A stretch of DNA of 64,000 nucleotides from Candidatus Nomurabacteria bacterium (GTDB lineage: Bacteria > Patescibacteriota > Minisyncoccia > Phycocordibacterales > UBA918): NCBI GenBank assembly GCA_020632095.1, contig JACKGF010000001.1:930713-994712 (forward strand), given 5' to 3'. The notes under the pieces are model-generated. The model searched no databases and was not told the origin of the DNA. It saw only the letters and a program-made list of their open reading frames with translations. This document shows positions 30,400 to 63,207 of this stretch, piece after piece. The translations under genes were made by a program, and so were the position numbers. Positions within the stretch are counted from its first letter, which is position 1. Each line of letters starts with the position of its first letter.

Positions 30400-32763
30400 A
30401 TGAATCATATGAGTGATGTTCTTAAAAAGTTCTGTCGGGCCGCTAACTATTTGTCAGCCGCTCAGATTTATTTACAAAGTAATACTTTATTAGCTGAGCC
30501 ATTAAAAGCTGACGATATTAAGCCGCGACTACTGGGGCACTGGGGAACCTGTCCTGGTATAAACTTTACATACGCCCACCTCAACCGAGCCATTATCGCC
30601 CACGACGTCGACATGATGTTTGTCCTTGGTCCTGGTCACGGATTCCCTGCAGTGCAGGCTAACCTTTTCTTAGAAGGAACACTGTCAAAATATTTTGGTG
30701 AAATTCCCCGTAACACTGCTGGAATATCACACATGGCAAAGAAATTCAGTTGGCCTTATGGTTATCCAAGTCATAGTAACCCTGAAGCTCCAGGAGTAAT
30801 TTTGGAGGGAGGGGAACTTGGTTATTCACTCTCAACTTCATACGGAGCAATTTTAGATAATCCAAACCTAGTCGTAGCGTGTTTGGTGGGAGATGGTGAA
30901 GCCGAGACTGGCCCAACCGCGACCGCTTGGCATCTAAATAAACTCATAGACCCAGCGACCAATGGTGCTGTGTTGCCGATTCTCCATCTCAATGGTTACA
31001 AGATTTCTGGTCCTACTTTCATGGGTCGTATGAGTGACGATGAGCTACGGGCCTTGTTTTATGGCTATGGGTACGAACCTCACTTTGTTGATGCTTACAC
31101 CGAAGAAGATGTGCACGCACGCATGATGGAAGTTATGGACACAGCGATTGAAGCAATCCGTTTCACTCAGCACTGTGCTAGAGAAGGTACTCTGCAAGAA
31201 AATCCACGTTTCCCGATGATTGTCCTTCGAACACCAAAAGGTTGGGATAGTATCGACTACATCGGAGACCAAAAAATCGAAGACAACCACTACTCTCATC
31301 AAGTGATTGCTGTAAACGCTAAGACCAATGATAGTGAACGTGCTCAACTTGAAGAGTGGTTGCGTTCGTATCGTTTTAACGAATTGTTTGATGGCGAAAA
31401 TTTTGATGCTGATATCCAAAGCTTGATTCCACGAGAGGGTAGGAGAATGGGAGACAATCCACACGCTCGCGGGGGAGATCCGTGTTACAAACCACTGTCA
31501 TTACCAGCTATAGAAAATTATTCTGTTACCGGTACTTGTAATCTAAATGACCCAATCTGCGGTACTGAAAGTGGAATGGAAAAGATTGGACATTACTTGC
31601 GTGACATCATGCGTGACAACGCAGCTAATCGAAACGTTCGTCTGATGTCTCCAGATGAGACTTATTCCAACAAGTTAGACGCGGTCTTTGAGGTTACTGA
31701 CAGAGCGTTTGTTTGGCCACACAAGGAATGGGACAAAAACCTAGCTTGGGATGGTCGGGTACTGGAGATGCTGTCTGAACATAGTTTGCAGGGTATGCTC
31801 CAAGGTTATGTATTAACCGGTCGTCACGGAGTGTTTGTTTCCTACGAAGCTTTTGTGCAGATTGTTGCTAGTATGACTGACCAATATGCTAAGTTCCTCA
31901 AGATTGCTCGTGACGTGAAATGGCGAGGAACCATTCCTTCACTCAACTACATCTTGACTTCTGGTGCTTGGCGTCAGGAACATAATGGTTTCTCTCACCA
32001 AAACCCAGGTTTCATTGACGGAGTTTTGCAACGACAAGGTTGCTTCACTAATGTGTATTTCCCAGCCGACGCTAACACTGCTTTAGTGACATTTAACCGC
32101 ATGATGGCTTCCACTAAAGAAATCAACGTACTCGTTGGCTCTAAGCGACCATTACCGATTTGGCGCTCACTAGAGGAAGCGAAAAAAGATGTGATGGATG
32201 GAATCTCAGTTTGGAAGTTTGCCAGTGATGAAGATCCTCATGTGGTATTTAGCGCAGCAGGGGACTACCCAACTCTAGAAGCCCTAGCGGCAATGAGCTT
32301 GGTCCGCAAGTATGCTCCAGCGGTACGAATGCGATTTGTGAATATTACTTCACTATCTGTTCTTGGTATTGGTAACTCACAGTGTCGAGTACTACGTCAT
32401 GACTTTGAACACTACTTCACAGAAGACAAACCAGTAATTGTTAACTTCCACGGTTACCCACAAACCATCAAGCAAGTATTATTTGATTATGTTGATGACA
32501 CAAGACGCTTTGTAATCCACGGTTATGAAGAATCTGGCTCAACCACAACTCCGTTTGATATGATGGTGCGCAATCGAGTAGATCGGTTCCATCTAGCAAT
32601 GGAAGCCTTTGCTAAGGCTGCTGAACAGGGAGTGATTGCCGAAACGGAAGCTCAAGAACTCATAGCCTCTTTCCAAGAAAGGTTAGCTGAACACCGAGCT
32701 TATGTAGTTGAACATGGCGAAGATATCGCTGAAATCACTAACTGGGTATGGGAACAACGCTAG
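30400..32763 (+). CDS. xfp: xylulose-5-phosphate/fructose-6-phosphate phosphoketolase
   Basis: 787 aa; GHWGTCPG motif and overall XFP architecture. Confidence 0.9.
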   Translation: MNHMSDVLKKFCRAANYLSAAQIYLQSNTLLAEPLKADDIKPRLLGHWGTCPGINFTYAHLNRAIIAHDVDMMFVLGPGHGFPAVQANLFLEGTLSKYFGEIPRNTAGISHMAKKFSWPYGYPSHSNPEAPGVILEGGELGYSLSTSYGAILDNPNLVVACLVGDGEAETGPTATAWHLNKLIDPATNGAVLPILHLNGYKISGPTFMGRMSDDELRALFYGYGYEPHFVDAYTEEDVHARMMEVMDTAIEAIRFTQHCAREGTLQENPRFPMIVLRTPKGWDSIDYIGDQKIEDNHYSHQVIAVNAKTNDSERAQLEEWLRSYRFNELFDGENFDADIQSLIPREGRRMGDNPHARGGDPCYKPLSLPAIENYSVTGTCNLNDPICGTESGMEKIGHYLRDIMRDNAANRNVRLMSPDETYSNKLDAVFEVTDRAFVWPHKEWDKNLAWDGRVLEMLSEHSLQGMLQGYVLTGRHGVFVSYEAFVQIVASMTDQYAKFLKIARDVKWRGTIPSLNYILTSGAWRQEHNGFSHQNPGFIDGVLQRQGCFTNVYFPADANTALVTFNRMMASTKEINVLVGSKRPLPIWRSLEEAKKDVMDGISVWKFASDEDPHVVFSAAGDYPTLEALAAMSLVRKYAPAVRMRFVNITSLSVLGIGNSQCRVLRHDFEHYFTEDKPVIVNFHGYPQTIKQVLFDYVDDTRRFVIHGYEESGSTTTPFDMMVRNRVDRFHLAMEAFAKAAEQGVIAETEAQELIASFQERLAEHRAYVVEHGEDIAEITNWVWEQR

Positions 32764-33929
32764 TCGTCAATCCAGGTAGTTCATCAAAAAAATACGCGCT
32801 TTATAACGACGGTGAACCAGTCATAGAAATTCGCTTCGAAAAAACCAATACGGGTTTCGAGACTTGTTTAAGTGTAATTGGAGGTCAACAGACTTGCGAA
32901 TCTGTTTCAGCTATTGGTTTTTCTGACGCTTTTTCTAAAGTTTTTTCTAGCACTAGAGATTATCTAAAACAGGCGAATCTCAGTGAATTAGATTCAATTG
33001 TAGTACGAGTGGTGTCACCAGGGACTTTTTTCCAGAAGCATGCAGAAGTAGACAAGGAGTATTTGGATCAGCTTAACAAACGACAAGCTTCCGCACCGCT
33101 ACATATTCCAACTATCCTAAAAGAAATAAAAAGTATTCAAAAACATTATCCAAAAATTAGGATAATTGCTGCCTCAGATAGTGCTTTTCATGCTGATATG
33201 CCACCGCAAGCTAGAGACTTCAGTATTGCTGTGAAAGATGTTAAGAAGTTTGATATTCATCGATTCGGTTATCATGGCTTGTCAGTAGCTTCGGTGGTGA
33301 GACGGATTCATTCTGTAATCGGTCAAGATCCAGAACGAATGGTGGTTTGTCATATCGGTAATGGTGTTAGTGTGACAGCGGTTAAGGGAGGGAAGAGTGT
33401 TGATACGACCATGGGGTTTTCTCCAACTAGTGGTTTGCCGATGGGTAGTCGGGCTGGTGATATCGATAGTGCAGCCTTGCTAGAATTGATGCGAGTGAAG
33501 AATTTTCGTCCAACTGATGCTGAGATGTATCTAAACACCAATGGTGGTCTCTCCGGTATGGCTCAAGATTCTGATATTCGTCGTTTGCTCGACCGTCGTT
33601 CCAAACACGACCCGGTCGCTGTGCAAGCATTAGATACTTTTGCTTACAATATTCAAAAAGCAGTCGCCGCCATGACAGTAGCCCTTGGCGGTTTGGATGT
33701 ATTGGTTTTGACCGCTACGGCCTCTGTGCGTAGTTCAGAGCTAAGGTGTCTGATTTTGAGTGGTTTAACCCATCTTGGGGTGGACGTGCATCAAGATAGA
33801 AATGATTTGTTTGTTGGTAAGGAAGGGGTGGTTAGTAGTAATAACAGCCAGATTAAAGTGGTTGTCATGAAGACTGATGAGATGGGAGAAATGGAGCAAG
33901 TTGCAAGACAACTTAATTTACCAAATTAG
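32748..33929 (+). CDS. ackA: acetate kinase
   Basis: LVVNPGSSSKKYALY N-terminus, 393 aa; overlaps xfp end, so exact start uncertain. Confidence 0.85.
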   Translation: MGTTLVVNPGSSSKKYALYNDGEPVIEIRFEKTNTGFETCLSVIGGQQTCESVSAIGFSDAFSKVFSSTRDYLKQANLSELDSIVVRVVSPGTFFQKHAEVDKEYLDQLNKRQASAPLHIPTILKEIKSIQKHYPKIRIIAASDSAFHADMPPQARDFSIAVKDVKKFDIHRFGYHGLSVASVVRRIHSVIGQDPERMVVCHIGNGVSVTAVKGGKSVDTTMGFSPTSGLPMGSRAGDIDSAALLELMRVKNFRPTDAEMYLNTNGGLSGMAQDSDIRRLLDRRSKHDPVAVQALDTFAYNIQKAVAAMTVALGGLDVLVLTATASVRSSELRCLILSGLTHLGVDVHQDRNDLFVGKEGVVSSNNSQIKVVVMKTDEMGEMEQVARQLNLPN

Positions 33930-33987
33930 CAATTTGGTAAATTGTTGTTTGTTTAGATGGTAAACTAGTCAAGAAGCAGGTACGGAT

Positions 33988-35307
33988 ATGAATCCTTGGT
34001 CAAATCAAAATAAAAAAGCTTTTTTTCAATCAATTCTTGTTTTTACAATTCTGTTTTCAGCAGTGATTTTGTTGACTGTTTACTATGATTTCACTGGTGT
34101 CGATATGGGGGGGTTGCTGTTTTTGTCAGCCTTTTTACTTTGTGTGTTTGCTGCCAAAAATGCTTATGATACTACTAGGGGAGCGGTCAGCTCAGCTTTT
34201 TTAAAAAAGAACGTTGGCGAGAGTTTAGACTTCACCTCTGAAGAATTGTACGTTCAGTTGTATAAAAATAGTCCGATACCATATCTTTTAATTGATATAG
34301 ATGGGCAGGTACAGTCGGCCAACCTAGCGGCGGCGCGTATGTTTGGTATGACTCAGGCCAATGTCACTGGTCTTAATGTATTCAGCCGAGTGGAGTGTGA
34401 TGTGGTTGAGCACCTTGATTTTTTAATAGAGAAATTTCGTCGTGGAGTATCGATTAGTGACGAAATAGTGCGTGTGAAGCGGGAAGATTTTAAAGAAGAA
34501 TGGGCATTATTGTCACTTTTTCGTTTTACTGATATACACGGTCAACGAATTGGTCTTTTGACTCTGGTTGATATCACCAAGCAGAAAAGAGCTGAAGACG
34601 CCAAGTCAGAATTTGTTTCACTAGCTTCGCATCAACTCAGGACCCCGATTGCTGGCATGAAGTGGAGTGCTGAGTTACTGCAATTAGACAATCCCGAGAC
34701 TCTAACCGATAGACAACAAAAGTACATTGAAAGATTGTTGATCAGTATTAAGAGAATGGCTATTCTGGTGGATGATTTTTTGCGAGTGTCCCGCTTCGAG
34801 TTGGGAACATTTCAAGCTGAGCTGGAGGAGGTTAAATTGTCTGAACTTTTTGAAGACATAATGTCTGAACAAGAGTCTAGAGCAAAACAAAAGAAATTGT
34901 CAGTTAAGTCGTTTTATGAAAAGTCTATCGACACAGTAATAACTGATCCGAATCTTGTTCGGATGATAGTAACAAATCTTTTTTCAAACGCTGTTAAATA
35001 CACTCGTGAGAAGGGAACGATTCATATTGGCTTTGGTCGTAAGGATGACAATATTATTATTACAGTAGCCGACAATGGTATGGGTATTCCGGCTGAAGAT
35101 CAGGACAGTATTTTCTTAAAGTTATTTCGAGCTTCAAACGCGGTGCGAGATGTTCCAGATGGAACTGGGTTAGGTTTGTATATTGTACACGAGGCGGTGT
35201 CAGTCCTTAAAGGAAACATAACCTTCACTACTACTGAAGGTATCGGAACTACATTCGAAGTATTGCTACCACTTGAGTTACCTGGAGAAAAAACTAAAGA
35301 AGATTAG
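33988..35307 (+). CDS. sensor histidine kinase (TM - PAS - HisKA - HATPase_c)
   Basis: H-box SHQLRTPIAG, N-box NLFSNAVKYT, G-boxes DNGMGI and GTGLGL. Confidence 0.75.
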   Translation: MNPWSNQNKKAFFQSILVFTILFSAVILLTVYYDFTGVDMGGLLFLSAFLLCVFAAKNAYDTTRGAVSSAFLKKNVGESLDFTSEELYVQLYKNSPIPYLLIDIDGQVQSANLAAARMFGMTQANVTGLNVFSRVECDVVEHLDFLIEKFRRGVSISDEIVRVKREDFKEEWALLSLFRFTDIHGQRIGLLTLVDITKQKRAEDAKSEFVSLASHQLRTPIAGMKWSAELLQLDNPETLTDRQQKYIERLLISIKRMAILVDDFLRVSRFELGTFQAELEEVKLSELFEDIMSEQESRAKQKKLSVKSFYEKSIDTVITDPNLVRMIVTNLFSNAVKYTREKGTIHIGFGRKDDNIIITVADNGMGIPAEDQDSIFLKLFRASNAVRDVPDGTGLGLYIVHEAVSVLKGNITFTTTEGIGTTFEVLLPLELPGEKTKED

Positions 35308-36995: not shown

Positions 36996-38123
36996 CTATA
37001 CTCTCATCTGACTCAATATGGCATTATTTTTTGCTTTCCTGGATGTCCTATTAGACCGTTTTTTCTCAAGACGAGTTTGGCCTTGGGTAATAAAAAACCC
37101 CAACCTTTCTTTCATTTCCTTATCTTCTTCGTCAGCCTCTTCAAGCATCTGGCGGGCCATTTTCATTTCGTCATCATGGTGGACGCTAAAAGGTCCGAAT
37201 TCACAGTGGTCACCCAATACAATATATCGGGCAAAGCGACGCCGGAGATCAAGAAACTTAACTTCAGATAATAGATTTAGAAAATACTTGCATGTATGAA
37301 CCTGAATTCCTCTTGCGCCGGGCTTATCACCCGGTCCAATCAAAAACTCAACTTGCTCCGCCAACAAATCAACGGCGTAGGGTAGGGCTCGACCTCCGAT
37401 TATGCACAATTCAATCTGGTATAAGTAGCAGCGACGCGCGTCTTCATGGTCGGCGCGAGGCTGTGTTTTACCAGCATTCTCGGACAGAATAATCCGAACC
37501 ATTCTTTCGTGCGCCTTTTTCTTCCAGGAAGAAGGAATTCTGGCTTGTAACAACGCTCTTAGCTGGTCGTAACCAGAGGCAAAGTCCATGTTCCAATACA
37601 CTACCGGGTCAAGTGGTTGCCAGAGCTGAAAAAGCTCTTCCGCCAGCGGGTCATCTTCTGCCAGGACGCTAAGAGCAAAGATTATTGCCTTGTGGTAAGT
37701 GGGGACAGATTCATCCGCTTTATGCCCGCTCTCTTTATCAGCGTCTGGAGTAGCCTTCATGCATAGGGGCAAGAGCTGGAATAGAAACTTTTGCAGAGCC
37801 CGCGACAATGTTGCAAAATCAAAATCTCTCAACAACCCGTTGAGCTTTCTCTTGGCCGAAGCTTGGTTGTTTGCCCACGGAAACGGCGAGAGTGAGATGT
37901 TGGGTGACAGCAATACCACCAAAGCACGGGCTTTGTAGGTATCATTAATTTCTTTGTTGGTAAGTAATTCTAGAAGTGCGTGGTTCTCATTTTTTACAAA
38001 CGCGCACCACTTGCTCCAAACCTGACCGGGAAAGTTAATGTTGGCGTCAACGTGGCCAAAGTGCAATCCGTGAAGCGCACGAGCTTTTTTGATAAAGTCG
38101 ATACTGCTATTTTGTTCAGACAT
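36996..38123 (-). CDS. hypothetical cytoplasmic protein
   Basis: 375 aa ORF, no motif recognised; GC-richer than surroundings. Confidence 0.45.
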   Translation of the reverse strand: MSEQNSSIDFIKKARALHGLHFGHVDANINFPGQVWSKWCAFVKNENHALLELLTNKEINDTYKARALVVLLSPNISLSPFPWANNQASAKRKLNGLLRDFDFATLSRALQKFLFQLLPLCMKATPDADKESGHKADESVPTYHKAIIFALSVLAEDDPLAEELFQLWQPLDPVVYWNMDFASGYDQLRALLQARIPSSWKKKAHERMVRIILSENAGKTQPRADHEDARRCYLYQIELCIIGGRALPYAVDLLAEQVEFLIGPGDKPGARGIQVHTCKYFLNLLSEVKFLDLRRRFARYIVLGDHCEFGPFSVHHDDEMKMARQMLEEADEEDKEMKERLGFFITQGQTRLEKKRSNRTSRKAKNNAILSQMRV

Positions 38124-38605
38124 TTACTTCTCCTTCGGTTGTGTTTTTAACAATTACACTAGTTGAACAACAACATTTTACTAAGAACCCTCCATTGAGA
38201 AATATAGCATTAGGGTATGGATTGTAAACACTTAGGGCTCTCACTCTTGCTAGCTGGATTTTTTGTACCATAATGTACAATTTTGTTTGTTGCTGATTTT
38301 TTTATGCACGGCTTATAAAGAACTTTTACGATAGTTATACACAATCTTATCCACGGTTTGAGATTTTAGGATTTAAGACAGACTGAAAACAAACGATTTC
38401 TGGTCTTGCGAAATTTTTGGTGTGAAATTTCGTGTTGAATTTGACATGTCAAGCAATAATTGACCCTGGCTGTAAAGGGGGTAAATTTAAGATTCATAGA
38501 AATATATTTTGCGGTTCTTCTCGGTATTTATGCCGAAAAATGATGGGGCCACAACATATATTTCTAGGAAATATTTTAAGAGATTTAATTACTTAAAAAG
38601 GTGTT

Positions 38606-40252
38606 ATGAATTATAAAAAAATAGTAATGAGCGCCAGTACGATTGCATTCGTGACCGCTCTAGTGATCGGAGGGACCGGAGCTTTCTTTAGTGACACTGA
38701 AACCTCAGAAGCCAACGTGTTTACTGCTGGCTCAATAGATCTGAAGGTGGATAGTACACAACATTATAATAATGCAATTTGTGAAGGTGGAGTGTGGGTT
38801 TTGGTAGGTGAAGAAACTGTGCCCCAATACCCAGTAATAGGTAGTGCTTGTGATGGAACATGGGAAGAAACAGATCTTGGGCCAACAAATCAATTTTTTG
38901 ATTTTGACGATGTAAAGCCGGGTGATCTTGGTGAAAATACTATTTCACTGCACGTTGTAAACAACGATGCTTATGCCTGTGCTGATTTGTCTAACATCAT
39001 AAATATTGATAACGGCTTCAGTGAGCCAGAAGATGAAGTAGATGGTCCGGCTACTCCGGGTGACGATGGTACTCCTGATGGAGATTTGGCTCAAAATCTC
39101 GACTTCCTTGTGTGGTCAGACAATGGAGCTGCGGAAGGTCATGCAGGAAACAACATTTGGGACGCTGACGAGGTTGGTGACGACACTTCTGGTGGAGCTC
39201 CAACAACAAATATGTCATTCCCACTAGCTGTTCCAGGTAACCCACTGCCTGGTGGACAAACTCGATTCTTAGGATTTGCTTGGTGTGCTGGAACCTTTAC
39301 AGCAGGTGGTCCTGGTGTTGCTCCAGTTTGTGACGGTTCAACTATGGGTAATATTGCTCAAACTGACAAATATCAAGCTGATATTACTTTGCGAGTTGAA
39401 CAAGCTCGAAATAATCCAAACTTCACATGTGAAGCTCCACAAGTAGTAGAGCGACAACTAGTTGGATCAGAAGCGTTGGCCTATGTTGCGCCTACTTGTG
39501 ATGTGACTGTAAGTGGAGATGAGTCAATTCAAACTGCGGTAAGTGGTGCAGCAGAGAATAGTACTGTTTGTGTTGATTCTACTTACGACATGAGTGGAGA
39601 TAATGTGGCAATACGTATTGAAACTCTAGGCCTCACACTAGCCGCTGTTACTAAGGGCGTTGATTTAGATGTGCCTGTCGTGCTTAGTAACAGTAATGTA
39701 ACTGTGACTGGGTTTGATGGCGTAATTGGTCAGGCAGAAAGCCCAGCTGAACAAGCGGCCTTTTATCTGGATAATGACGCAGATGGTGCAGAAATTTCTC
39801 ACAACACAGTAACAGGTGGTGTTGGAGCCGCTGTGCTTACAGAGACTGGTGCCGCTAATGGTGGAAGTCTTATCGCTAACAATGTATTTACCGGTGCAGT
39901 TCAAGGTATTTACACTAATCCACACACAGGAATAATTGTAATTGAATATAACGATTTCGTGGATAACGTTGTAGGGGTTGCAGGTTTAATGGGTGCAACA
40001 GTTCGTTACAATGAATTTACTCACACAACTCCTGCTTCAGAGGCTATTGGTATTGATGGCTCATTCGACAGTAATGTTGCTACTATTAACTTCAACAACT
40101 TCTTAAACGGAGTGAAAATAAACGACTATGGAGCTACAGCGGTTATTAATGCAGAGAATAACTTCTTTAGTGTAAGTGGTGCACTACAAACTACTACCCC
40201 GGCAGACTTTGATATCACACCGGAGGAAGTAAGTGTTTTCCCACACAACTAA
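38606..40252 (+). CDS. TasA/camelysin-like surface protein with SipW-cognate signal peptide and beta-helix-like repeats
   Basis: N-terminus GTGAFFSDTETSEANVFTAGSIDLKVD matches the SipW-cognate signal class (AFFSD motif); C-terminal half has NxxxG/T-rich parallel-beta-helix-like repeats. Confidence 0.6.
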   Translation: MNYKKIVMSASTIAFVTALVIGGTGAFFSDTETSEANVFTAGSIDLKVDSTQHYNNAICEGGVWVLVGEETVPQYPVIGSACDGTWEETDLGPTNQFFDFDDVKPGDLGENTISLHVVNNDAYACADLSNIINIDNGFSEPEDEVDGPATPGDDGTPDGDLAQNLDFLVWSDNGAAEGHAGNNIWDADEVGDDTSGGAPTTNMSFPLAVPGNPLPGGQTRFLGFAWCAGTFTAGGPGVAPVCDGSTMGNIAQTDKYQADITLRVEQARNNPNFTCEAPQVVERQLVGSEALAYVAPTCDVTVSGDESIQTAVSGAAENSTVCVDSTYDMSGDNVAIRIETLGLTLAAVTKGVDLDVPVVLSNSNVTVTGFDGVIGQAESPAEQAAFYLDNDADGAEISHNTVTGGVGAAVLTETGAANGGSLIANNVFTGAVQGIYTNPHTGIIVIEYNDFVDNVVGVAGLMGATVRYNEFTHTTPASEAIGIDGSFDSNVATINFNNFLNGVKINDYGATAVINAENNFFSVSGALQTTTPADFDITPEEVSVFPHN

Positions 40253-40376
40253 CATAAGAAATAAGAAAATCTAGCAATCTTATCTAGCCGTTCCACTCAT
40301 CACTTTGGTGGTGAGTGGCGGGCTGGAAGGGAAATCAGCGGCACATTAAAAATTACTTATCATTAAATACTCGCTT

Positions 40377-42035
40377 ATGAAACGCATCATTACAAGTTTA
40401 TTCCTCATCACAGTTGTTACCGGAGCGGTGGTTCTGGGGGGCACAAACGCTTTTTTCTCAGACGTTGAATCTTCAACTGCCAATACTTTTGCGGCTGGAG
40501 CCATAGACCTTAAGGTAGACAACGAAAGTTACTACAACGGTAAAGTAAACGAAGAGACTTCTTGGGATTTGGTTGATTTAACCGTTGAGAAATTTTTCGA
40601 TTTCCTCGACCTTAAGCCTTCTGATTACGGAGAAGACACAATCTCTCTTCATGTTGAGACTAATGATGCCTATCTATGCGCCAATGTGACGCTGACCTCC
40701 AATGAAGAAAATCTAATCAATGAGCCAGAATCACTAGTAGACCAAACCGATGGTCCAGGAGAAGGTGAACTAGCCGGCTTGGTGAATTTTATCTGGTGGG
40801 CGGATGATGGTGATAATGTCTTCGAGAGTGATGAGGTTGTGATTTCTCAAGGTAATTTAGGTGAATTGGGGATTGGTAATACCTATCCAATTACACTAGC
40901 TGATAGTGATGAAAATGTTTGGACTGGAGTGGGTGGTCCAGTTCCTGGTAACGAAACTCTTTATCTTGGTAAGGCGTGGTGCTTTGGAACTATCGGTACT
41001 GATCCGATTGAGCAAGATGGCAAAACAGATGCTATGTCTCCAGCCGGAAATAATAACGGTAACGATGTTGATGGTGAGCCTGAGGATGGTGGAATCACTT
41101 GCGATGGTTCATTACTCGGAAATGAAAGTCAGACAGATACTTTGACGGCTGACGTGACCTTTGAAGCAGTGCAAGCTCGACATAACGATGATTTCCAATG
41201 TACTGCTACTCCACGAACAACTTTGACTTTGGTTAAGCAGTTGCTAAATGGAGACAATGTCGTGACTGATTGGACACTAGAAGCGGCTGGTCCAACTAAT
41301 ATTTCAGGTCTAACTGGGGAGGTAGGAATTACCAACGCCGCTGTTTTAGCTGGTAGCTACAATTTGTCTGAATCTGGTCCTGGAGAATATGAGGCAACAA
41401 ACTGGTCATGTAGTGGTGGTAATCAGATTGACGGAGATACTGTAGAGATTGCTGATGGAGATAACGTGGTTTGCAAGATAAGTAATTACTTGGTGTGTGA
41501 TCCAAAGTTAGCTTATGCTGACGATGTTGTGAGCTCTGATCAAGGGGTAAGGAAAAATGGTACAGGCATTGCGCTAGATAGAACAGATCCGACTAAGGCA
41601 CTCGGTGCACCGCAGAGTTCTGGAGCACCGTATGACAATCCAGTGGTTCCTGGTTCCTTCTTTAGTCTTGGTTTCAATCCAGTTACTACAGCTACTTCTG
41701 GCGGTTCTATAGTGGTTAAGTTTAACGATAGTTACATTGTTGATGGCCCAGGTAATGACTTGCGAGTTTGGGAAATTACTGGCGGTACAGATTATCCGGT
41801 TGAAAAAGTAAAGATTGAGGTGAGTCAAAATGGAATTTCATGGTTTGAAGTAGCATCTAGTCTTGATCGTGATGCCGAAGCCGATCTGTTCGCTTCTGGT
41901 TTGACTTGGGCACGCTATGTCAGGCTGACCGATGTGTCTGACCGAAGTCTATTTGAAGCGACTGCCGATGGCTTTGACCTCGATGCCTTCAGTGCTCTCA
42001 ACTGTGCCGACCGGACCTTCATTCCTAATATCTAG
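40377..42035 (+). CDS. TasA/camelysin-like surface protein paralog 2, C-terminal discoidin-like domain
   Basis: N-terminus GGTNAFFSDVESSTANTFAAGAIDLKVD; C-terminal WARYVRLTDVSD-type jelly-roll features. Confidence 0.6.
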   Translation: MKRIITSLFLITVVTGAVVLGGTNAFFSDVESSTANTFAAGAIDLKVDNESYYNGKVNEETSWDLVDLTVEKFFDFLDLKPSDYGEDTISLHVETNDAYLCANVTLTSNEENLINEPESLVDQTDGPGEGELAGLVNFIWWADDGDNVFESDEVVISQGNLGELGIGNTYPITLADSDENVWTGVGGPVPGNETLYLGKAWCFGTIGTDPIEQDGKTDAMSPAGNNNGNDVDGEPEDGGITCDGSLLGNESQTDTLTADVTFEAVQARHNDDFQCTATPRTTLTLVKQLLNGDNVVTDWTLEAAGPTNISGLTGEVGITNAAVLAGSYNLSESGPGEYEATNWSCSGGNQIDGDTVEIADGDNVVCKISNYLVCDPKLAYADDVVSSDQGVRKNGTGIALDRTDPTKALGAPQSSGAPYDNPVVPGSFFSLGFNPVTTATSGGSIVVKFNDSYIVDGPGNDLRVWEITGGTDYPVEKVKIEVSQNGISWFEVASSLDRDAEADLFASGLTWARYVRLTDVSDRSLFEATADGFDLDAFSALNCADRTFIPNI

Positions 42036-42070
42036 TTTCTAACGTAACGCAGTAATCAATCAAAAGCAAA

Positions 42071-43051
42071 ATGACTAGCCACTACCTCACAACATTAATA
42101 AAAATCAGTTTGATTATCGGAACAGTCGTTCTGCTGGGATTATTGATGCTGGGGAAAGAGGCGGTTGGTCAGACTTTTGCAACTGGGTCTGGGACTGGAG
42201 GATTGGAATTAAAGATAGATAGTACAACTTATTACAACGGTGTAATACAACCACAATTATCTTGGTCTCTTAAGAATCTAAAACCATGGCATGATAAATT
42301 CTTTAGTTTCGATGATGTTAAACCGGGTGATTTTGGCTCTAGTTCTATTAGTATTCACATTAAGAAAAATCCGGCTTACGTTTGTTTAGATTTTCAGAAT
42401 TTAAAAGATAAAGAAAATGGTCGCAACGAACCGGAAAGAGAAGTTGATGGTAATGGTAAAGGAGAACTATCTTCCGAAATTGAATTCTTCGCGTGGCGGG
42501 ATGACGGTGATAATTTGTTTGAAGTCGGAGAGGAGGCACTATTTGGTACTTCCACTCAGTCAGCTAAGCAGGTGTTGAAAGGGAAGACTTACCCTCTAGC
42601 AGATAGCAAGAATGGTTCTCCTTATTTATCAAATAAAACCAAATACATTGGAATCAATTGGTGTGCTGGAGATTTGGCGGTCGACTTGTCGACCGCCAAG
42701 ATCACCTGCGATGGTGAAACAATGGGTAACGAAGCTCAGACCGACTCCATGACATTTGATGTTTCCTTGCGAGCCGTGGTGGCCAAACAACAACCTTGGT
42801 TTACTTGTGTGCAAGGGGAAAAACCTCATGGTGATCATCATGATGATGACGAGGATGAAGATGATGATCATGAATCAGAACATGACGACGACGAAGATCA
42901 TGGTGGTGGTTCTGGTCATGGTGATCAAGACGACAATCATAATGACGATGATGACCATAGTTCTTGGCACTGGGCAAAAAAGACTCGATGGGAATCAGTC
43001 AAAAATTATTGTGTGGGAGCATGGAATAACGTACGTAATAGACATTCATGA
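42071..43051 (+). CDS. TasA-like paralog 3 with His/Asp-rich C-terminal tail
   Basis: ELKIDSTTYYNG, FSFDDVKPGDFG and ITCDGETMGNEAQTD align with paralogs 1 and 2; C-terminal DHHDDDEDEDDDHESEHDDDEDHGGGSGHGDQDDNHNDDDDH. Confidence 0.45.
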   Translation: MTSHYLTTLIKISLIIGTVVLLGLLMLGKEAVGQTFATGSGTGGLELKIDSTTYYNGVIQPQLSWSLKNLKPWHDKFFSFDDVKPGDFGSSSISIHIKKNPAYVCLDFQNLKDKENGRNEPEREVDGNGKGELSSEIEFFAWRDDGDNLFEVGEEALFGTSTQSAKQVLKGKTYPLADSKNGSPYLSNKTKYIGINWCAGDLAVDLSTAKITCDGETMGNEAQTDSMTFDVSLRAVVAKQQPWFTCVQGEKPHGDHHDDDEDEDDDHESEHDDDEDHGGGSGHGDQDDNHNDDDDHSSWHWAKKTRWESVKNYCVGAWNNVRNRHS

Positions 43052-44649
43052 AAATAATCATCACCATTTTTAACGTTGTAGTTTGTGTACTGATGCTAGC
43101 AGTAGCTTTACTCTTTGTAACACCGCTATTACCACTAGAAAATAATATTGAGTTACGGATTGTTCAGTCAGGTTCGATGGAGCCGTCGATAATGACGGGA
43201 GCGGTGGTTTTGGTGGTTCCTCATGAAAATTATAAAGTAGGGGATGTTATTACCTTCGGAGGAAGTGCGGCTAAGGTGCCGACTACACACCGTATTGTAG
43301 AGATTTATGAAGAGGGTGGTCAGAGCTGGTTTGTTACTAAGGGTGATGCCAACGAAGAAGCTGATACCGCTGTTACCCCAAGCAAAGACATCATCGGTTC
43401 AGTTTTTGTAGATGTTCCTTACGCTGGCTATGTGCTCGATTTTTCTAGGCAGCCACTCGGTTTCTTTTTCTTGATTGTTTTACCAGCCTTGCTAATCGTA
43501 TTTAGCGAAATTGAAAAAATTTGGTCAGAAATAAGAAACAAAAAGTCAGAAGCAAAAGATGTTGATGATAGAGATAAGACCGAGGATGTCCCTCATAGCG
43601 GTCCAGAGGAAATAACTACATACCCAGTCCGGGGTCAAAGAATGATGGATATTGGCAATCCAGTGCGCTATTCGTATTCTGGTTTTAGTGAGAGTGAGTC
43701 ACAGAAAATGTCTACTCTAAAATTTTCACCTGCTATTCCCAGCGCGAAAAGTTCGAAGTTTAGTTTAAATTGGAAAAGTTTTGGGGTTGGGGTTTTGATC
43801 TTGGGTACTGTCATCGGAATAAATTTTGTTCCGTTAACTATGTCTTACTCAAATGACTCTGAAGACTCTACAGGTAACACTTTAACAGCAGTTTCTCTAG
43901 ATTTTAAAACTTTACCAGACGGCCAAATTTATAGTTTTATCAATGGCGAATTGTCTGGTGATGATGATGGGGCTTTGGTAACAGTGGTGGCACCAGAAGC
44001 GGGGAGTGTACCAGTGCGATACAATATTGCGGTAGAGGTGACAGGCGGTAGTCAAGCTTTTTGTGATGCGATACAGGCGGTAGCTGATGAACCATTTATT
44101 TATACTGGGTCTTTGACAGCACTCGTGGCCGATGGGGTTTACTTTGACTGGCCGTGGTCACTCAACCTGTCTTTGCCAAATTCTGATGGTTTGAATTTTA
44201 GTGATACTTGTCAGGTTGATATTGTTTATACTGCTTGGCATTACGATGAAGAGACGGACCAAGGTTATTTTGATGAAGAAAAAGTCCCGCTGTCGTTTAC
44301 TTTGTTAGCAGAAATTGTTCCGGTTGCCAGCTTCGAATTGCAGTCTTTCTCAGTCCCTCTAGAAGAAGAAACACCAGAATCTGATAAACCAGAACCAGAA
44401 CCGGTGATAGAGCCAGGATTAGAAACTGAATTAGAAAAAGTAGTTGAAGCAGAAGACAAGAAAGAAATAACTGAGCCCACCGCTAAAGCAGAGACAGAAG
44501 TAGAGGTTGTGATAGAAGAAGTGGTAGACGATAATTCTGATCCAGTAGTAGAGAATCCACCAGAAGAAACTGAACAACCAGAAATTACTGAAGAGACCAA
44601 AAAAGAAGAGGTGGTCGAGATAGTAAAAGAAGTTACGATAGAAGACTAG
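43048..44649 (+). CDS. SipW-like (archaeal/ER-type) signal peptidase I with long acidic Glu/Pro-rich C-terminal extension
   Basis: VQSGSMEPSIMTGAVV...THRIVEI: catalytic Ser-His motifs of S26B peptidases; followed by about 350 aa with a TM segment and an EPEPE/ETE low-complexity tail. Confidence 0.65.
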   Translation: MKIIITIFNVVVCVLMLAVALLFVTPLLPLENNIELRIVQSGSMEPSIMTGAVVLVVPHENYKVGDVITFGGSAAKVPTTHRIVEIYEEGGQSWFVTKGDANEEADTAVTPSKDIIGSVFVDVPYAGYVLDFSRQPLGFFFLIVLPALLIVFSEIEKIWSEIRNKKSEAKDVDDRDKTEDVPHSGPEEITTYPVRGQRMMDIGNPVRYSYSGFSESESQKMSTLKFSPAIPSAKSSKFSLNWKSFGVGVLILGTVIGINFVPLTMSYSNDSEDSTGNTLTAVSLDFKTLPDGQIYSFINGELSGDDDGALVTVVAPEAGSVPVRYNIAVEVTGGSQAFCDAIQAVADEPFIYTGSLTALVADGVYFDWPWSLNLSLPNSDGLNFSDTCQVDIVYTAWHYDEETDQGYFDEEKVPLSFTLLAEIVPVASFELQSFSVPLEEETPESDKPEPEPVIEPGLETELEKVVEAEDKKEITEPTAKAETEVEVVIEEVVDDNSDPVVENPPEETEQPEITEETKKEEVVEIVKEVTIED

Positions 44650-44840
44650 GTGGTAGAAGTTGAGCAACCTGTTGAGACTAGTGAAACTGAATAGGGAATC
44701 TACAAATGAAAACGTCCCATCAATTGACAGGACGCTCGACCATTAGGTCTATTAATCTATAATACCCAGAAATTTCCTGTCTTTTTTTGACAATTTTTCT
44801 ATATCTTCCTTCGTCATGCCAGTTACATACGAGTGGTAGC

Positions 44841-45098
44841 CTATGCTAACTGCGTCACAACACACTCTGACAGCTTCGGTAAGGTTTTGGCAAGGAGTAT
44901 CAAAAAAGCACGCCTCCCAGTCGAATCCATGAACACAGTAAGGACTGTCAGGTTTATCGCAGGCACAATTTTTATTGGCAATAAATATGTCTTCGTTCTG
45001 CGTGTTTTTTTATTCACTCTCTGACACAGCGGAATCTTTTGCTCTGCGGTTACTGTACCGCAGACGGTACATACTGCTTCGTGAACATCTTTATCCAC
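44841..45098 (-). CDS. hypothetical small protein (CxxC start)
   Basis: 85 aa; GAGGTGGA RBS 7 nt upstream; weak call. Confidence 0.2.
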   Translation of the reverse strand: MDKDVHEAVCTVCGTVTAEQKIPLCQRVNKKTRRTKTYLLPIKIVPAINLTVLTVFMDSTGRRAFLILLAKTLPKLSECVVTQLA

Positions 45099-45326
45099 CT
45101 CGGTTTCCTTTTAAAGGTTGGTTGGTTCGATTAACAAAAAACCCTTCTGTTCAAATAATACACTAGATATTAAAGTTAATGTTTGTGGGGTGGTAATAGA
45201 CAATACTTTCGTAAGCACCTAGTTTTTATTTATAGGCTTTAAATAACCTTTGACTTTGGGCTAATTGTAAGTATTATCACTAATCTAATAGATTACTTTT
45301 AACATTATTCTGTCTACAGCCACGAC

Positions 45327-46073
45327 ATGAAAACATCTAGTATTATTCTCGCCGCCGGTAAGGGGACACGAATGTTGTCGGAAACTCCTAAGGTTCTACA
45401 TGAATACGAAGGTCGTCCTTTTGTATGTTCAATCTGTGACAAGGCAATAAGTTGTTCTGACGAAACTGTGGTGGTGGTCGGCTATAGAGGGGAGGATGTA
45501 ATAAAGGTATTACCTGAAGGGGTAAAGGTTGCTTGGCAGAAAGAACAGCTTGGTACCGGCGACGCAGTGCGTACTGCCTTGGTCGAGGTTTCGCCAGACA
45601 CCGATACGGTATTGGTGATGCCGGCTGATCATCCGCATATAACAGCTGAAACTTTAGCTGAACTTTTTACTAAACATCATTCGCATGATTTCCCGGTTAC
45701 TTTCGCTACTGTGAGTTTTTCAGATTATGGTGAATGGCGTAGTGCTTTTGTGAGACACGGACGAGTGATACGAAACGAGCACGGGGTAGTGGAAAAAATT
45801 ATTGAGTACAAAGATGCAGATGAAGAGGAGCGAGCTATAACAGAAGTCAACGTTGGAGTATACGCTTTTGATACTAGTTGGCTACGTCAACATATTGGTG
45901 AACTGAATAATAATAACAACGCTCAGGAAATATATATAACAGACTTGGTAGCGGTAGCGGTTGCTACCGCTGGTGGAGCCTTTGCTTCACCACTTGGTGA
46001 TATTAGACAAGGTCTCGGAGTTAATTCGCTTGAAGATTTGTCGGTGCTACAAGGTCTACATCTGGAAACGTAA
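45327..46073 (+). CDS. sugar-phosphate nucleotidyltransferase (GlmU N-terminal-like)
   Basis: ILAAGKGTRM, LGTGDAV motifs of NTP-transferase domain; 248 aa. Confidence 0.65.
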   Translation: MKTSSIILAAGKGTRMLSETPKVLHEYEGRPFVCSICDKAISCSDETVVVVGYRGEDVIKVLPEGVKVAWQKEQLGTGDAVRTALVEVSPDTDTVLVMPADHPHITAETLAELFTKHHSHDFPVTFATVSFSDYGEWRSAFVRHGRVIRNEHGVVEKIIEYKDADEEERAITEVNVGVYAFDTSWLRQHIGELNNNNNAQEIYITDLVAVAVATAGGAFASPLGDIRQGLGVNSLEDLSVLQGLHLET

Positions 46074-52304: not shown

Positions 52305-53366
52305 ATGAAAAAGAAACCTAGTTCATTGAAAGCTGTTGACTTCTTCTGTTCTGGAGGAGGAATGACAAATGGTTTAATTCAAGCTGGTATTGAGGTAGTT
52401 GCTGGTATCGATAATGACCCAATTTGTAAGGAAACGTATGAGGCGAACAACCCAGGAGCAGAATTTATACTAGAAGACGTCTTTGATCTTGAGGAGAAAA
52501 AACTTGCTAAGAAACTAGACTTAAAAAAGAATGATGACGATCTTATCCTGATAGGATGTAGCCCATGTCAGTTTTGGTCAATCATCCAGACTGACAAAAC
52601 AAAATCTGAAAAATCGAAGAATCTATTAATCGAATTTCAAAGGTTTGTTAAATACTTTAACCCAGGTTATGTACTGGTTGAGAATGTGCCGGGTATATTA
52701 AATCGAAAAGAGGAGAGTGGCTTGAAAAAGTTTGTCGATGATCTGGAGAATGATAGTTATGTGGTTCACTACGATATCGTAAACATGAACGATTATGGAG
52801 TGCCACAAGCAAGGCGCAGATTTTCTCTGATCGCTACACGATTACAAGATGTTCCTATAAAGTTAAGTCCGAAAAAGAAAAAACTAACACTTCGTGACGT
52901 TCTTGGTGAAGCTAATGGATTTCCAAAAATTGGACCCGGTCATGTAGACAAAAGTAGTCTTCAGCACTCAACAGCAAAGCTGACTGAAATAAATGTAAAA
53001 AGATTAAAGAAGACTAGGAAGAATGGTGGGTCTTGGCTTGATTGGGCAGATGATCCAGAACTAAAAAGAAAGTCTTATCGAGGTAAAGATTTCAAAGATA
53101 ATTATGGACGTATGAGTTGGGATAAGCCAGCCCCAACAATAACCACAAAATACATCAGTGTTTCTAATGGTAGATTTGCCCACCCAGATGAGAACAGGGG
53201 AATTTCAGTAAGAGAAGGTGCAACAATCCAAACTTTTCCTAAAAACTATGAATTCCGCACAGCATCTATTGCGTCAGCCGCAAAAATTGTTGGCAATGCT
53301 GTTCCCCCTGCCTTTGCAAAAACACTCGGAAAGAGTATTGTAAAGGCACATGCCACAAGAAAATGA
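52305..53366 (+). CDS. dcm: DNA (cytosine-5)-methyltransferase
   Basis: Motif I FFCSGGGMTNG, motif IV GCSPCQFWS, motif VI ENVPGIL, conserved C-terminal QTFP...GNAVPP. Confidence 0.85.
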   Translation: MKKKPSSLKAVDFFCSGGGMTNGLIQAGIEVVAGIDNDPICKETYEANNPGAEFILEDVFDLEEKKLAKKLDLKKNDDDLILIGCSPCQFWSIIQTDKTKSEKSKNLLIEFQRFVKYFNPGYVLVENVPGILNRKEESGLKKFVDDLENDSYVVHYDIVNMNDYGVPQARRRFSLIATRLQDVPIKLSPKKKKLTLRDVLGEANGFPKIGPGHVDKSSLQHSTAKLTEINVKRLKKTRKNGGSWLDWADDPELKRKSYRGKDFKDNYGRMSWDKPAPTITTKYISVSNGRFAHPDENRGISVREGATIQTFPKNYEFRTASIASAAKIVGNAVPPAFAKTLGKSIVKAHATRK

Positions 53367-55005: not shown

Positions 55006-55069
55006 GATTACATTATCTCCGCAATGGAGTTACAACACCTAACCCTCGCAAGAGATATGGTGCACAGAA

Positions 55070-63150: not shown

Positions 63151-63207
63151 ATTTACATCTGTCCACCATGGATAGAAGCTAATATTATTGGACTGAAATT
63201 TCCTATG

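What the first reader, a model, noticed from the sequence alone, without database searches (positions are those of the whole stretch)
38606..44649. Operon of three TasA/camelysin-like proteins plus a dedicated SipW-like signal peptidase with a 350-aa acidic extension
- Two proteins begin with the SipW-cognate signal peptide class (AFFSD(T/V)E(T/S)S.AN.F.AG.IDLKVD). This class marks TasA amyloid-fibre subunits in Bacillus and the archaeal bundling-pilus subunits, which assemble by donor-strand exchange.
- A third paralog keeps the downstream core (ELKIDSTTYYNG, ITCDGETMGNEAQTD) and adds a His/Asp-rich tail.
- The gene immediately downstream is an S26B (SipW/archaeal-type) signal peptidase followed by a TM segment and a Glu/Pro-rich tail.
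- Paralogs 1 and 2 carry different C-terminal modules (beta-helix-like repeats; discoidin-like domain).
- In a candidate-phyla-like epibiont this looks like a self-contained fibre or adhesin system with lectin-like tips, which to my knowledge is not characterised in such organisms.
Basis: partly seen in the sequence, partly recalled or inferred. Interest (0 to 1): 0.6.

Follow-up and report, generated by a model that had tools for sequence, protein, structure and literature searches.

The report
TasA-like fibre cassette, peptidase-substrate fusion
This is a four-gene cassette, conserved across the tiny symbiotic Patescibacteria, that encodes three relatives of the Bacillus biofilm-fibre protein TasA and their own signal peptidase, and the peptidase's long "tail" turns out to be a fourth substrate-type protein fused to the enzyme.

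Summary
Four co-directional genes lie at 38606-44649. P1 and P2 pass the curated SipW-cognate signal model (TIGR04088, 27 bits against a cut-off of 19). The peptidase passes the archaeal/Sec11-type model (113 against 52 bits) and keeps the catalytic Ser43, His81, Asp100 and Asp106.

The shared ~250-aa N-domain is a divergent TasA-superfamily domain. Profile-profile probability against real TasA/CalY is 92.5% without the signal peptide. The best structural match in the PDB is the TasA fibre, and AbpA is third.

The "350-aa acidic extension" was misread. It consists of a cytoplasmic linker, a third TM helix, a cognate-type cleavage motif (TMS|YSNDSEDS..N.L.A..LDF), an Ig-like β-sandwich and an acidic tail. 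That module is a family of its own (402 relatives). In 81 Patescibacteria loci it is fused to the peptidase in 21 and is the next gene in 35. The -3/-1 site residues are as conserved in the fused forms as in the free ones.

P3 lacks the donor-strand segment. I infer a donor-strand-exchange fibre made of a TapA-like primer, two extender subunits carrying adhesin-like modules, and an acceptor-only end subunit. Polymerisation itself is untested. This is a new variant of a known kind.

The parts
38606..40252 (+). P1: cleavable TasA-superfamily subunit. Signal peptide res 1-26 (38606-38683), predicted cut TGA|FF. Donor-strand-like segment FFSDTETSEANVFTAGSIDLKVD res 27-49 (38684-38752). N-domain to res 275 (39430). 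C-terminal module res 286-548 (39461-40249) with beta-helix-like repeats (weak).
   Evidence: TIGR04088 27.3 bits and PF12389 32.1 bits. 36% identity to P2, E 4e-47. NosD match only E 0.02. No PDB sequence match for the C-module.
40377..42035 (+). P2: cleavable TasA-superfamily subunit. Signal res 1-25 (40377-40451), predicted cut TNA|FF. Donor-like segment res 26-48 (40452-40520). N-domain to res 275 (41201). SpaA_2 prealbumin-like domain res 281-368 (41217-41480). C-terminal discoidin-like region res 373-552 (41493-42032).
   Evidence: TIGR04088 26.9 bits. PF19403 8e-23 and F5_F8_type_C 2.7e-4, the latter below cut-off. AF2 model pLDDT 80.5 with res 22-41 disordered. Top PDB fold hit is the TasA fibre 8AUR. 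More than 1,700 homologues.
42071..43051 (+). P3: TasA-superfamily paralogue without the cognate cleavage/donor segment. TM res 9-27 (42095-42151). A short spacer, then TFATGSGTGGLELKIDS res 35-51 (42173-42223). N-domain to res 246 (42808). His/Asp-rich tail res 253-300 (42827-42970). Predicted acceptor-only chain-end subunit, possibly membrane-anchored.
   Evidence: 35% identity to P2, E 1e-46. No TIGR04088 hit. Orthologues in other loci have the same TM + spacer + TFATGSG layout, are single-copy and lie directly upstream of the peptidase.
43048..43527 (+). SipW/Sec11-type (S26B) signal peptidase domain, res 1-160: TM1 res 3-21, catalytic Ser43 (SGSMEP), His81 (THRIV), Asp100 and Asp106 (KGDANEEAD), TM2 res 137-155.
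   Evidence: TIGR02228 113 bits (cut-off 51.85); SipW equivalog 115 bits, below its cut-off of 190. Alignment to human SEC11A/C, E 1e-8. S43, H81, D100 and D106 invariant in 63 fused relatives. TM segments.
43528..43779 (+). Cytoplasmic linker, res 161-244, with the conserved MMDIGNPVRY segment (res 199-208). It corresponds to the long cytoplasmic N-region of the free-standing C-domain proteins.
   Evidence: Topology. Conserved MMDIxTPVRY..LPTLDLR in fused forms and a related motif in free forms.
43780..43908 (+). Internal signal-like element: TM3 res 245-263 (43780-43836), site T264-M-S266|Y267 (43837-43848), donor-strand-like segment YSNDSEDSTGNTLTAVSLDFK res 267-287 (43846-43908).
   Evidence: The C-domain HMM hits the signal plus first strand of 170 TasA-like proteins, median E 4e-8, including window P1 and P2 at 6e-9 and 4e-10. 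12 of 51 family members hit TIGR04088. Family consensus vGsTvS|YFnDxExSxxNxlxAxxlDF. -3/-1 residues conserved 100%/98% in fused forms and 100%/97% in free forms. The window copy itself does not score with TIGR04088.
43846..44322 (+). C-domain: Ig-like beta-sandwich with two invariant Cys, res 267-425. A family of its own, either fused to the peptidase or encoded by the next gene.
   Evidence: 402 relatives at E<=1e-3 and 183 at E<=1e-10. AF2 model pLDDT 89.4. Generic Ig-like fold, with chaperone-usher pilins among the hits and TapA not among the top 50. No Pfam or PDB sequence match. Invariant C95 and C144 of alignment A2.
44338..44649 (+). Glu/Pro-rich acidic tail, res 431-533, plus the stop codon. 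Predicted disordered.
   Evidence: 30% Glu, 11% Pro, net charge -29. The separate 154-aa gene downstream of the 200-aa peptidase in L001 has the same kind of tail after a cognate signal.

Best explanation
The locus is one copy of a cassette conserved across Patescibacteria. I infer that it builds a TasA-type extracellular fibre or adhesin.

Shown:
- P1 and P2 are secreted proteins with SipW-cognate signal peptides.
- Their shared N-domain is a divergent TasA-superfamily jelly-roll. Its most conserved segment is the ~23 residues just after the cleavage site (FFSDxExSxxNxFxAGxIDLKxD), and this segment is unstructured in the monomer model.
- The fourth gene is an active-site-intact Sec11/SipW-type signal peptidase.
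- The peptidase C-terminal part is a natural fusion to a further substrate-type protein: cytoplasmic linker, TM3 running in-to-out, T-x-S|Y-x-x-D-x-E-x-S..N.L.A..LDF on the catalytic side of the membrane, Ig-like sandwich, acidic tail.

Inferred mechanism:
1. The Sec system exports the subunits.
2. The peptidase cuts after T-x-A/S and frees the N-terminal strand.
3. As in TasA, that strand inserts into the next subunit (donor-strand exchange).
4. The peptidase also cuts its own C-terminal module, in cis or trans. This releases a protein with a donor-like strand on an already complete Ig fold. That protein would be a donor-only primer comparable to TapA, made 1:1 with the enzyme and at the site of secretion.
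5. P1 and P2 both donate and accept strands. They are the extender subunits, and they carry variable C-terminal modules (beta-helix-like; SpaA-like plus discoidin-like) as candidate adhesive side-domains.
6. P3 has the fold but lacks the donor segment. It would be an acceptor-only subunit that ends the chain and, if its TM is not cleaved, ties the fibre to the membrane.
For: Family assignments:
- Curated models for the signals and the peptidase.
- Catalytic residues aligned to SEC11A/C and invariant in 63 relatives.

TasA relationship of the mature domain:
- hhalign against 117 real TasA/CalY proteins gives 97.0% (E 9e-11) with the signal and 92.5% (E 5e-7) without it. The alignment runs from the donor strand to the LKPGD motif. 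A collinear weak match falls on the last strand.
- Foldseek top hit among 350,542 PDB chains is the TasA fibre 8AUR (prob 0.99). The bundling pilin AbpA 7UEG is third.

Fusion:
- The C-domain family has 402 relatives. Among the best 150, 63 are fused to a peptidase and 85 are not.
- In 81 loci from named genomes, 21 are fused, 35 have the domain in the next (often overlapping) ORF, and 7 have only the motif segment.
- L001 shows a 200-aa peptidase followed by a separate gene with ISA|YGDTETSSANIFQAG and an acidic tail.
- The C-domain HMM hits the signal plus first strand of 170 TasA-like proteins.
- 12 of 51 members pass TIGR04088 at E<=0.01.
- The topology places the site on the catalytic side of the membrane.
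- The -3/-1 residues are equally conserved in fused and free forms.

P3: the donor segment is replaced by a TM end plus a short spacer. The gene is single-copy and directly upstream of the peptidase in many loci.

TapA parallels: long signal, essential N-terminal donor-like residues, disulfide-bonded Ig fold, dispensable tail (PMC10151520; PMC9674648).
Against: - No result here shows polymerisation. I had no multimer prediction.
- Core-only profile comparison with TasA is not significant (best local E 9e-4, prob 23%). TM-scores to 8AUR are low (0.35/0.42). The N-domain profile finds no PDB sequence.
- Large C-terminal modules are not a feature of characterised TasA-type fibre subunits and could hinder packing.
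- The window's own internal site deviates at +2 (Ser instead of Phe/Tyr) and does not score with TIGR04088. It might not be cut in this organism.
- The C-domain shows no detectable relationship to TapA by sequence or fold.
- Some P3 orthologues have AxA-like sites after the TM. P3 may therefore be cleaved by a general peptidase rather than stay anchored.
Confidence: 0.6

Rival explanations
1. The proteins are monomeric secreted or surface adhesins or enzymes. The TasA-like N-domain and the SipW-type signal would serve only for export and surface display of the C-terminal modules. No fibre is made.
For: The AF2 monomer of the N-domain is a complete, confident fold. P1 and P2 carry large, variable C-terminal modules that characterised TasA fibre subunits lack. 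Core similarity to TasA is weak.
Against: The most conserved part of the family is the ~23 residues after the cleavage site. They are nearly invariant even between paralogues that are 35% identical overall. A signal peptidase does not require that. In TasA this segment is the donor strand, and it is disordered in the monomer model. The cassette also keeps a donor-only-type and an acceptor-only-type member, which makes little sense for monomers.
Confidence: 0.22
2. The C-terminal part of the peptidase is a permanent accessory domain of the enzyme, for example for substrate docking, cell-envelope anchoring or regulation. It would not be a substrate and is never cleaved. The motif resemblance would reflect descent from a substrate gene without retained function.
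For: The window copy has Ser at +2 and fails TIGR04088. The +2 aromatic is relaxed in fused forms, 67% against 97%. B. subtilis SipW is reported to have a second, non-catalytic role residing in its C-terminus (my own recollection of Terra et al. 2012, not checked here).
Against: In fused forms, -3 is T/S/G in 100% and -1 is small in 98%, +1 is aromatic in 100%, and D at +4 and E at +6 are each at 95%. This matches the free-standing proteins, which must be processed. Fused and split forms alternate among related genomes, which implies that the two arrangements are functionally interchangeable.
Confidence: 0.15
3. The proteins are precursors of ribosomally synthesised peptides, as the automatic JGI label suggests, or camelysin-type metalloproteases, as the Pfam family name suggests.
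For: JGI names many homologues 'predicted ribosomally synthesized peptide with SipW-like signal peptide'. PF12389 is titled 'Camelysin metallo-endopeptidase'.
Against: The proteins are 326-552 aa with confidently folded domains, not short precursor peptides. No modification enzymes are nearby. The label merely follows the TIGR04088 hit. No metalloprotease motif is among the invariant columns. The PF12389 match covers only the signal and first strand.
Confidence: 0.03

Closest known systems
Bacillus subtilis tapA-sipW-tasA operon (TasA fibres assembled by donor-strand exchange, TapA primer, dedicated peptidase SipW)
   Same: - A dedicated Sec11/archaeal-type signal peptidase is encoded with its substrates.
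- The substrates carry the TIGR04088 signal class.
- The main subunits are TasA-superfamily (hhalign 92.5% without signal; TasA fibre is the top fold hit).
- The N-terminal segment after the cleavage site is conserved.
- There is an accessory protein with a long signal, a donor-like N-terminus, a Cys-pair Ig-like domain and a dispensable-looking tail.
   Different: - There are two to five TasA-like paralogues rather than one.
- The N-domain is ~250 aa, has conserved Cys, and is followed by large variable modules.
- One paralogue lacks the donor segment.
- The accessory protein is not detectably homologous to TapA, and in about a third of cassettes it is fused to the peptidase.
- The peptidase scores below the SipW equivalog cut-off (115 against 190 bits).
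- The host is a wall-poor, ultra-small Patescibacterium.
Archaeal bundling pili (AbpA/AbpB of Pyrobaculum calidifontis) and related TasA-superfamily matrix filaments (cannulae, AbpX)
   Same: The subunit has a TasA-like jelly-roll fold (7UEG is the third-best fold hit). A larger beta-rich accessory protein is proposed there to provide the first strand or act as an adhesin.
   Different: Wang et al. found no dedicated peptidase in the Abp operon (PMC9245690). Sequence similarity to AbpA is not detectable here. The C-terminal adhesin-like modules and the peptidase fusion are absent there.
Chaperone-usher pili (donor-strand exchange with tip, rod and terminator subunits such as PapH)
   Same: The inferred logic has specialised chain-starting, extending and chain-ending subunits. 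The C-domain model matches CfaB, AggA, CooA and MrkA pilins at modest scores.
   Different: There is no chaperone, no usher and no outer membrane. The resemblance is architectural (Ig-like sandwich) and not evidence of homology.

Membership tests
SipW-cognate signal peptide class (TIGR04088) | Score at or above the curated cut-off (19 bits) on the N-terminal signal plus the A-[FY]-[FY]-x-D-x-E-x-S..N.F.AG segment | tested here: met
   P1 27.3 bits and P2 26.9 bits. P3 and the internal site of the window peptidase do not score, but 12 of 51 members of the C-domain family do.
SipW-cognate signal peptide class (TIGR04088) | Encoded next to an archaeal/Sec11-type signal peptidase | tested here: met
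   The peptidase lies directly downstream in the window and in 74 of 81 related loci.
Signal peptidase S26B (Sec11 / archaeal type / SipW) | Profile membership: TIGR02228 at or above 51.85 bits | tested here: met
   113.3 bits, E 9.8e-33, residues 7-156.
Signal peptidase S26B (Sec11 / archaeal type / SipW) | Catalytic Ser and His (not Ser/Lys) plus the conserved Asp residues | tested here: met
   Ser43, His81, Asp100 and Asp106 align with the SGSMEP, HR and KGDNN..D segments of SEC11A/C. All four are invariant in 63 relatives.
Bacillus SipW equivalog (NF046067) | Score at or above the 190-bit equivalog cut-off | tested here: not met
   115 bits. This is a SipW-like enzyme, not an orthologue by NCBI's criterion.
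TasA / camelysin / CalY family (PF12389; NF046066) | Pfam gathering score (22.5 bits) | tested here: met
   P1 32.1 bits and P2 28.1 bits, but the match covers only residues ~4-52 of a 196-position model. P3 does not match. The TasA equivalog NF046066 scores 16 bits against a cut-off of 450, so it is not met.
TasA / camelysin / CalY family (PF12389; NF046066) | Homology of the mature domain, independent of the signal peptide | tested here: inconclusive
   hhalign without the signal gives 92.5%, E 5e-7, but over 45 columns (donor strand to LKPGD). Global alignment gives 84.5%. Core-only gives two collinear sub-threshold matches. No PDB sequence hit.
TasA / camelysin / CalY family (PF12389; NF046066) | Jelly-roll fold like TasA | tested here: met
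TasA / camelysin / CalY family (PF12389; NF046066) | Polymerisation by insertion of the N-terminal donor strand into the next subunit | not testable with these tools
   No multimer prediction was available. Indirect evidence only: the segment is nearly invariant and disordered in the monomer model.
TapA (TasA anchoring/assembly protein) | Sequence or fold homology to the TapA V-set Ig domain (PDB 6HQC/8AIF) | tested here: not met
   The C-domain profile finds no TapA among PDB sequences at E<=10. TapA is not among the top 50 Foldseek hits.
TapA (TasA anchoring/assembly protein) | Architecture: SipW-type signal, donor-like N-terminus resembling that of the main subunit, complete Ig-type domain, dispensable tail | tested here: met
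   for this protein. TapA properties come from PMC10151520 and PMC9674648. This supports 'works like', not membership.

The most novel reading that the evidence does not exclude
The SipW-type peptidase is a self-processing enzyme-primer fusion. It cuts its own C-terminal module at the internal cognate site, releasing one fibre-nucleating protein per enzyme molecule at the secretion site. The released protein is donor-only, with a complete Ig fold. The resulting TasA-type fibre would have a defined polarity: primer at the tip, P1/P2 extenders displaying adhesin modules, and an acceptor-only P3 at the membrane. That would be a chaperone-free, usher-free pilus pathway with dedicated start and stop subunits. 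It could be a main host-attachment organelle of Paceibacteria and related CPR lineages.
Probability: 0.3. Interest if true: 0.75.

Novelty: new variant of a known kind. Interest (0 to 1): 0.6.

Why it matters
Patescibacteria/CPR bacteria make up a large share of bacterial diversity and mostly live attached to host cells. To my knowledge (not checked in the paper library), type IV pili are the only surface appendages studied experimentally in these organisms.

This cassette occurs in at least 289 species-representative genomes across many CPR classes. It is therefore a strong, testable candidate for a second, Sec- and SipW-dependent fibre or adhesin system.

The peptidase-substrate fusion is, as far as I could find, an undescribed arrangement for a type I signal peptidase. 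It offers a simple experiment: does the enzyme cut itself? The trio of donor-only, donor-plus-acceptor and acceptor-only proteins gives a concrete model for how TasA-type fibres could be started and stopped. That question is still open even in Bacillus.

Tried and rejected
- TIGR04088 on the isolated internal segment of the window peptidase and on the P3 N-terminus: no hit at E<=10. The case for the internal site therefore rests on the family, not on the window copy alone.
- Word-seeded homologue search with the peptidase C-terminal part: nothing. The exhaustive HMMER search was needed.
- N-domain profile and C-domain profile against PDB sequences: nothing meaningful, only acidic-tail noise.
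- TapA homology of the C-domain: not supported.
- Promoter and terminator scans of 38000-45400: at or below chance, uninformative.
- Rfam on the 677-bp downstream spacer: no match.
- PDB sequence searches with the P1 and P2 C-terminal modules: nothing.
- Tandem repeats in the operon: only the (GAT/ATG)n-type run that encodes the P3 His/Asp tail.
- RiPP-precursor and metalloprotease readings: rejected, as explained under the rival explanations.

Full report
**1. What is in the sequence**

Four co-directional ORFs occupy 38606-44649:
- P1, 548 aa
- P2, 552 aa
- P3, 326 aa
- a 533-aa peptidase

They are separated by 124, 35 and -4 bp. Base composition is even across the region. The flanking genes are unrelated:
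- upstream: a PAS histidine kinase and two ORFs without a family
- downstream: a nucleotidyl-transferase and a DUF2339 membrane protein

Promoter and terminator scans were at chance level.

**2.

P1 and P2 pass the curated SipW-cognate signal model TIGR04088 (27.3 and 26.9 bits, cut-off 19) and Pfam PF12389. Those matches cover only residues ~4-52.

P3 has no such hit, but it shares 35% identity with P1 and P2 over about 250 residues (E 1e-46 and 2e-41). P1 against P2 gives 36% identity, E 4e-47.

The peptidase passes TIGR02228 (113 bits, cut-off 51.85) but not the Bacillus SipW equivalog (115 bits against 190). Its SGSMEP, THRIV and KGDANEEAD segments align with the catalytic Ser/His/Asp/Asp of human SEC11A and SEC11C. 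Ser43, His81, Asp100 and Asp106 are invariant in 63 relatives.

On the C-terminal modules:
- Its discoidin-like match is sub-threshold.
- The beta-helix reading of P1 rests on a NosD match at E 0.02.
- PDB sequence searches with both modules found nothing.

**3. Is the mature N-domain really TasA-like?**

A profile of the domain finds no PDB sequence. I therefore tested the question in two other ways.

*Fold.* An AlphaFold2 model of P2 residues 1-283, built with 52 sequences, reached pLDDT 80.5 and pTM 0.74. It is an all-beta domain in which residues 22-41 are disordered. Those residues span the cleavage site and the conserved FFSD...AG segment. Foldseek against 350,542 PDB chains put the TasA fibre subunit 8AUR first (E 1.1e-3, probability 0.99, TM 0.35/0.42). 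The archaeal bundling pilin AbpA (7UEG) came third.

*Profile-profile comparison.* I fetched 117 real TasA/CalY proteins and ran hhalign against a 225-sequence N-domain profile:

| Region compared | Probability | E-value |
|---|---|---|
| With the signal peptide | 97.0% | 9e-11 |
| Without the signal (45 columns, donor strand to the LKPGD motif) | 92.5% | 5e-7 |
| Global, mature protein | 84.5% | 8e-7 |

The core alone gave two collinear sub-threshold matches, one on FFxFxDLKPGD and one on the last strand.

I conclude that the domain is a divergent TasA-superfamily member. That is family-level resemblance, not orthology.

**4. The peptidase 'extension' is a fused substrate-type protein**

A hydropathy scan gives this layout:
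- TM1, residues 3-21
- TM2, residues 137-155
- a cytoplasmic linker
- TM3, residues 245-263
- T264-M-S266|Y267-SNDSEDSTGNTLTAVSLDFK
- about 160 residues of non-acidic sequence
- a Glu/Pro-rich tail (residues 431-533; 30% Glu)

TM3 runs in-to-out, so the motif lies on the same side of the membrane as the active site.

An exhaustive HMMER search with residues 225-425 found 402 relatives, 183 of them at E<=1e-10. Among the best 150, 63 carry an N-terminal peptidase domain and 85 do not. The proteins without a peptidase are mostly 270-350 aa. They have a cytoplasmic N-region, one TM and then GSTVS|YFNDxExS.

Further evidence:
- Of 51 aligned members, 12 pass TIGR04088 in their own right and 17 carry the peptidase.
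- An HMM of this module hits the signal plus first strand of 170 TasA-like proteins (median E 4e-8). These include the window's P1 and P2.
- The AF2 model of the module (pLDDT 89.4) is an Ig-like sandwich preceded by an unstructured motif segment.
- Its fold matches are generic Ig-like domains, including chaperone-usher pilins. TapA is not among them.
- Pfam and PDB sequence searches do not recognise the module.
- Public names for family members are only automatic labels.

**5. The cassette is conserved across Patescibacteria**

A scan of one genome per GTDB species found 289 relatives of the N-domain. The 79 loci retrieved are all Patescibacteria. They include Paceibacteria, Kaiser-, Nomura-, Zambryski-, Lloyd-, Woese-, Davies-, Falkow-, Giovannoni-, Adler-, Vogel-, Yonath-, Taylor- and Portnoybacteria. 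The closest has 76% identity.

I ran an HMM census over 81 loci. Each locus has one to four N-domain genes, most often three. The state of the peptidase and C-domain is as follows:

| State in the locus | Loci |
|---|---|
| Full C-domain fused to the peptidase | 21 |
| C-domain encoded by the next, often overlapping, ORF | 35 |
| Only the motif segment present (5 fused, 2 in the next ORF) | 7 |
| Peptidase present, no C-domain hit | 9 |
| Peptidase at the contig end, state undetermined | 2 |
| No peptidase ORF seen in the locus | 7 |

L001 is one of the nine. There a 200-aa peptidase is followed by a separate 154-aa gene with ISA|YGDTETSSANIFQAG and an acidic Pro/Glu tail. L002 has the same fused layout as the window. 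The neighbours differ between loci, so the cassette is a self-contained unit.

**6. Three classes of substrate**

- **Class A (168 proteins).** The consensus is TGA|FFSDTETSTGNtFTAGAIDLkiD. Thr is at -3 in 158 and Ala at -1 in 156.
- **C-domain class.** The consensus is vGsTvS|YFnDxExSxxNxlxAxxlDF. In fused proteins, -3 is T/S/G in 100% and -1 is small in 98%. In free proteins the figures are 100% and 97%. Only the +2 aromatic is relaxed, at 67% against 97%. This equal conservation argues that the internal site is used.
- **P3 type.** A TM helix is followed after 4-8 residues by G-x-TFATGSGxGGLELKIDS. The segment equivalent to the TasA donor strand (FFSDTETST) is missing. When present, the gene is single-copy and directly upstream of the peptidase.

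**7. Mechanism**

In B. subtilis, TasA residues 28-38 insert into the next subunit. TapA has a 43-aa signal, an essential N-terminal segment, a disulfide-bonded Ig fold and a dispensable tail. It is proposed to supply the first donor strand (PMC9674648 and PMC10151520).

By analogy I infer the following roles:
- The C-domain protein is a donor-only primer.
- P1 and P2 are donor-and-acceptor extenders that carry adhesin-like modules.
- P3 is an acceptor-only end subunit, which might stay membrane-anchored.

The fusion would have the peptidase release its own primer. None of these assembly steps is shown here. I had no multimer prediction, and the window's internal site is slightly degenerate (Ser at +2; no TIGR04088 score).

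**8. Novelty**

Wang et al. 2022 already stated that PF12389 proteins occur in Patescibacteria. Four full-text searches found no description of the cassette, of the acceptor-only paralogue or of a peptidase-substrate fusion.

I rate the finding a new variant of a known kind. It is a TasA/SipW-type system with a distinctive subunit set and an enzyme-substrate fusion, in a lineage where surface organelles matter for the symbiotic lifestyle.

Noticed in passing
window 63207-63280 (-): A tRNA-Ile gene with anticodon UAU. This is an uncommon way for bacteria to read AUA codons.
   Followed up: no
window 52305-58569: The tmRNA gene (58173-58569, minus strand) is overlapped at its 3' end by the end of a large serine recombinase gene (56609-58243; Resolvase + Zn_ribbon_recom). 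Upstream lie a Dcm-type cytosine methylase (52305-53366), a HATPase_c_3 + Hypoth_Ymh protein (53350-55005) and a LOOT RNA (55036-55163, 56.5 bits). This looks like a mobile element integrated at ssrA that carries a defence-like module.
   Followed up: partly
window 44650-45326: A 677-bp stretch without a convincing ORF follows the peptidase gene, which is long for a compact CPR genome. It has a 12-bp-stem hairpin at 44710-44737 and no Rfam match at E<=1.
   Followed up: partly
window 43642-43671 (peptidase res 199-208) and free-standing relatives P0146-P0270: A conserved cytoplasmic segment (MMDIxTPVRY..LPTLDLR in fused forms; Y(V/A)RxR(M/T)DD(V/I)FVP...FPVSxHVLDL in free forms) precedes the signal-like TM of the C-domain family. 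A signal peptide should not need a conserved 40-70-aa n-region, and its function is unknown.
   Followed up: partly
L001 11577-11915 and L001 9478-10455: A fifth cassette gene in L001 (112 aa) has ASA|FGSDKT after its signal and a Gly/Asn-rich 'IVNNxxVxN...ANTGxN...NIVNTTxI' motif. The same motif recurs in the C-terminal tail of the L001 P3 orthologue. The window has no such gene.
   Followed up: no
window 42827-42970 (P3 res 253-300): The tail of P3 is a His/Asp/Glu-rich run (HGDHHDDDEDEDDDHESEHDDDEDH...) that suggests divalent-metal binding. The orthologues have quite different low-complexity tails, either Ser/Thr/Asn/Gly-rich or His/Asn/Asp-rich.
   Followed up: no
window 30400-35307: A phosphoketolase (XFP_N/XFP/XFP_C, 30400-32763) is followed by an overlapping 393-aa ORF and then a PAS-HisKA-HATPase sensor kinase (33988-35307). 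This is ordinary metabolism and signalling, unrelated to the cassette.
   Followed up: partly
alignment A2 (C-domain family): Five of 51 members of the C-domain family carry a lamin-tail domain (PF00932, best E 3e-16) C-terminal to the Ig-like domain, in place of an acidic tail.
   Followed up: no
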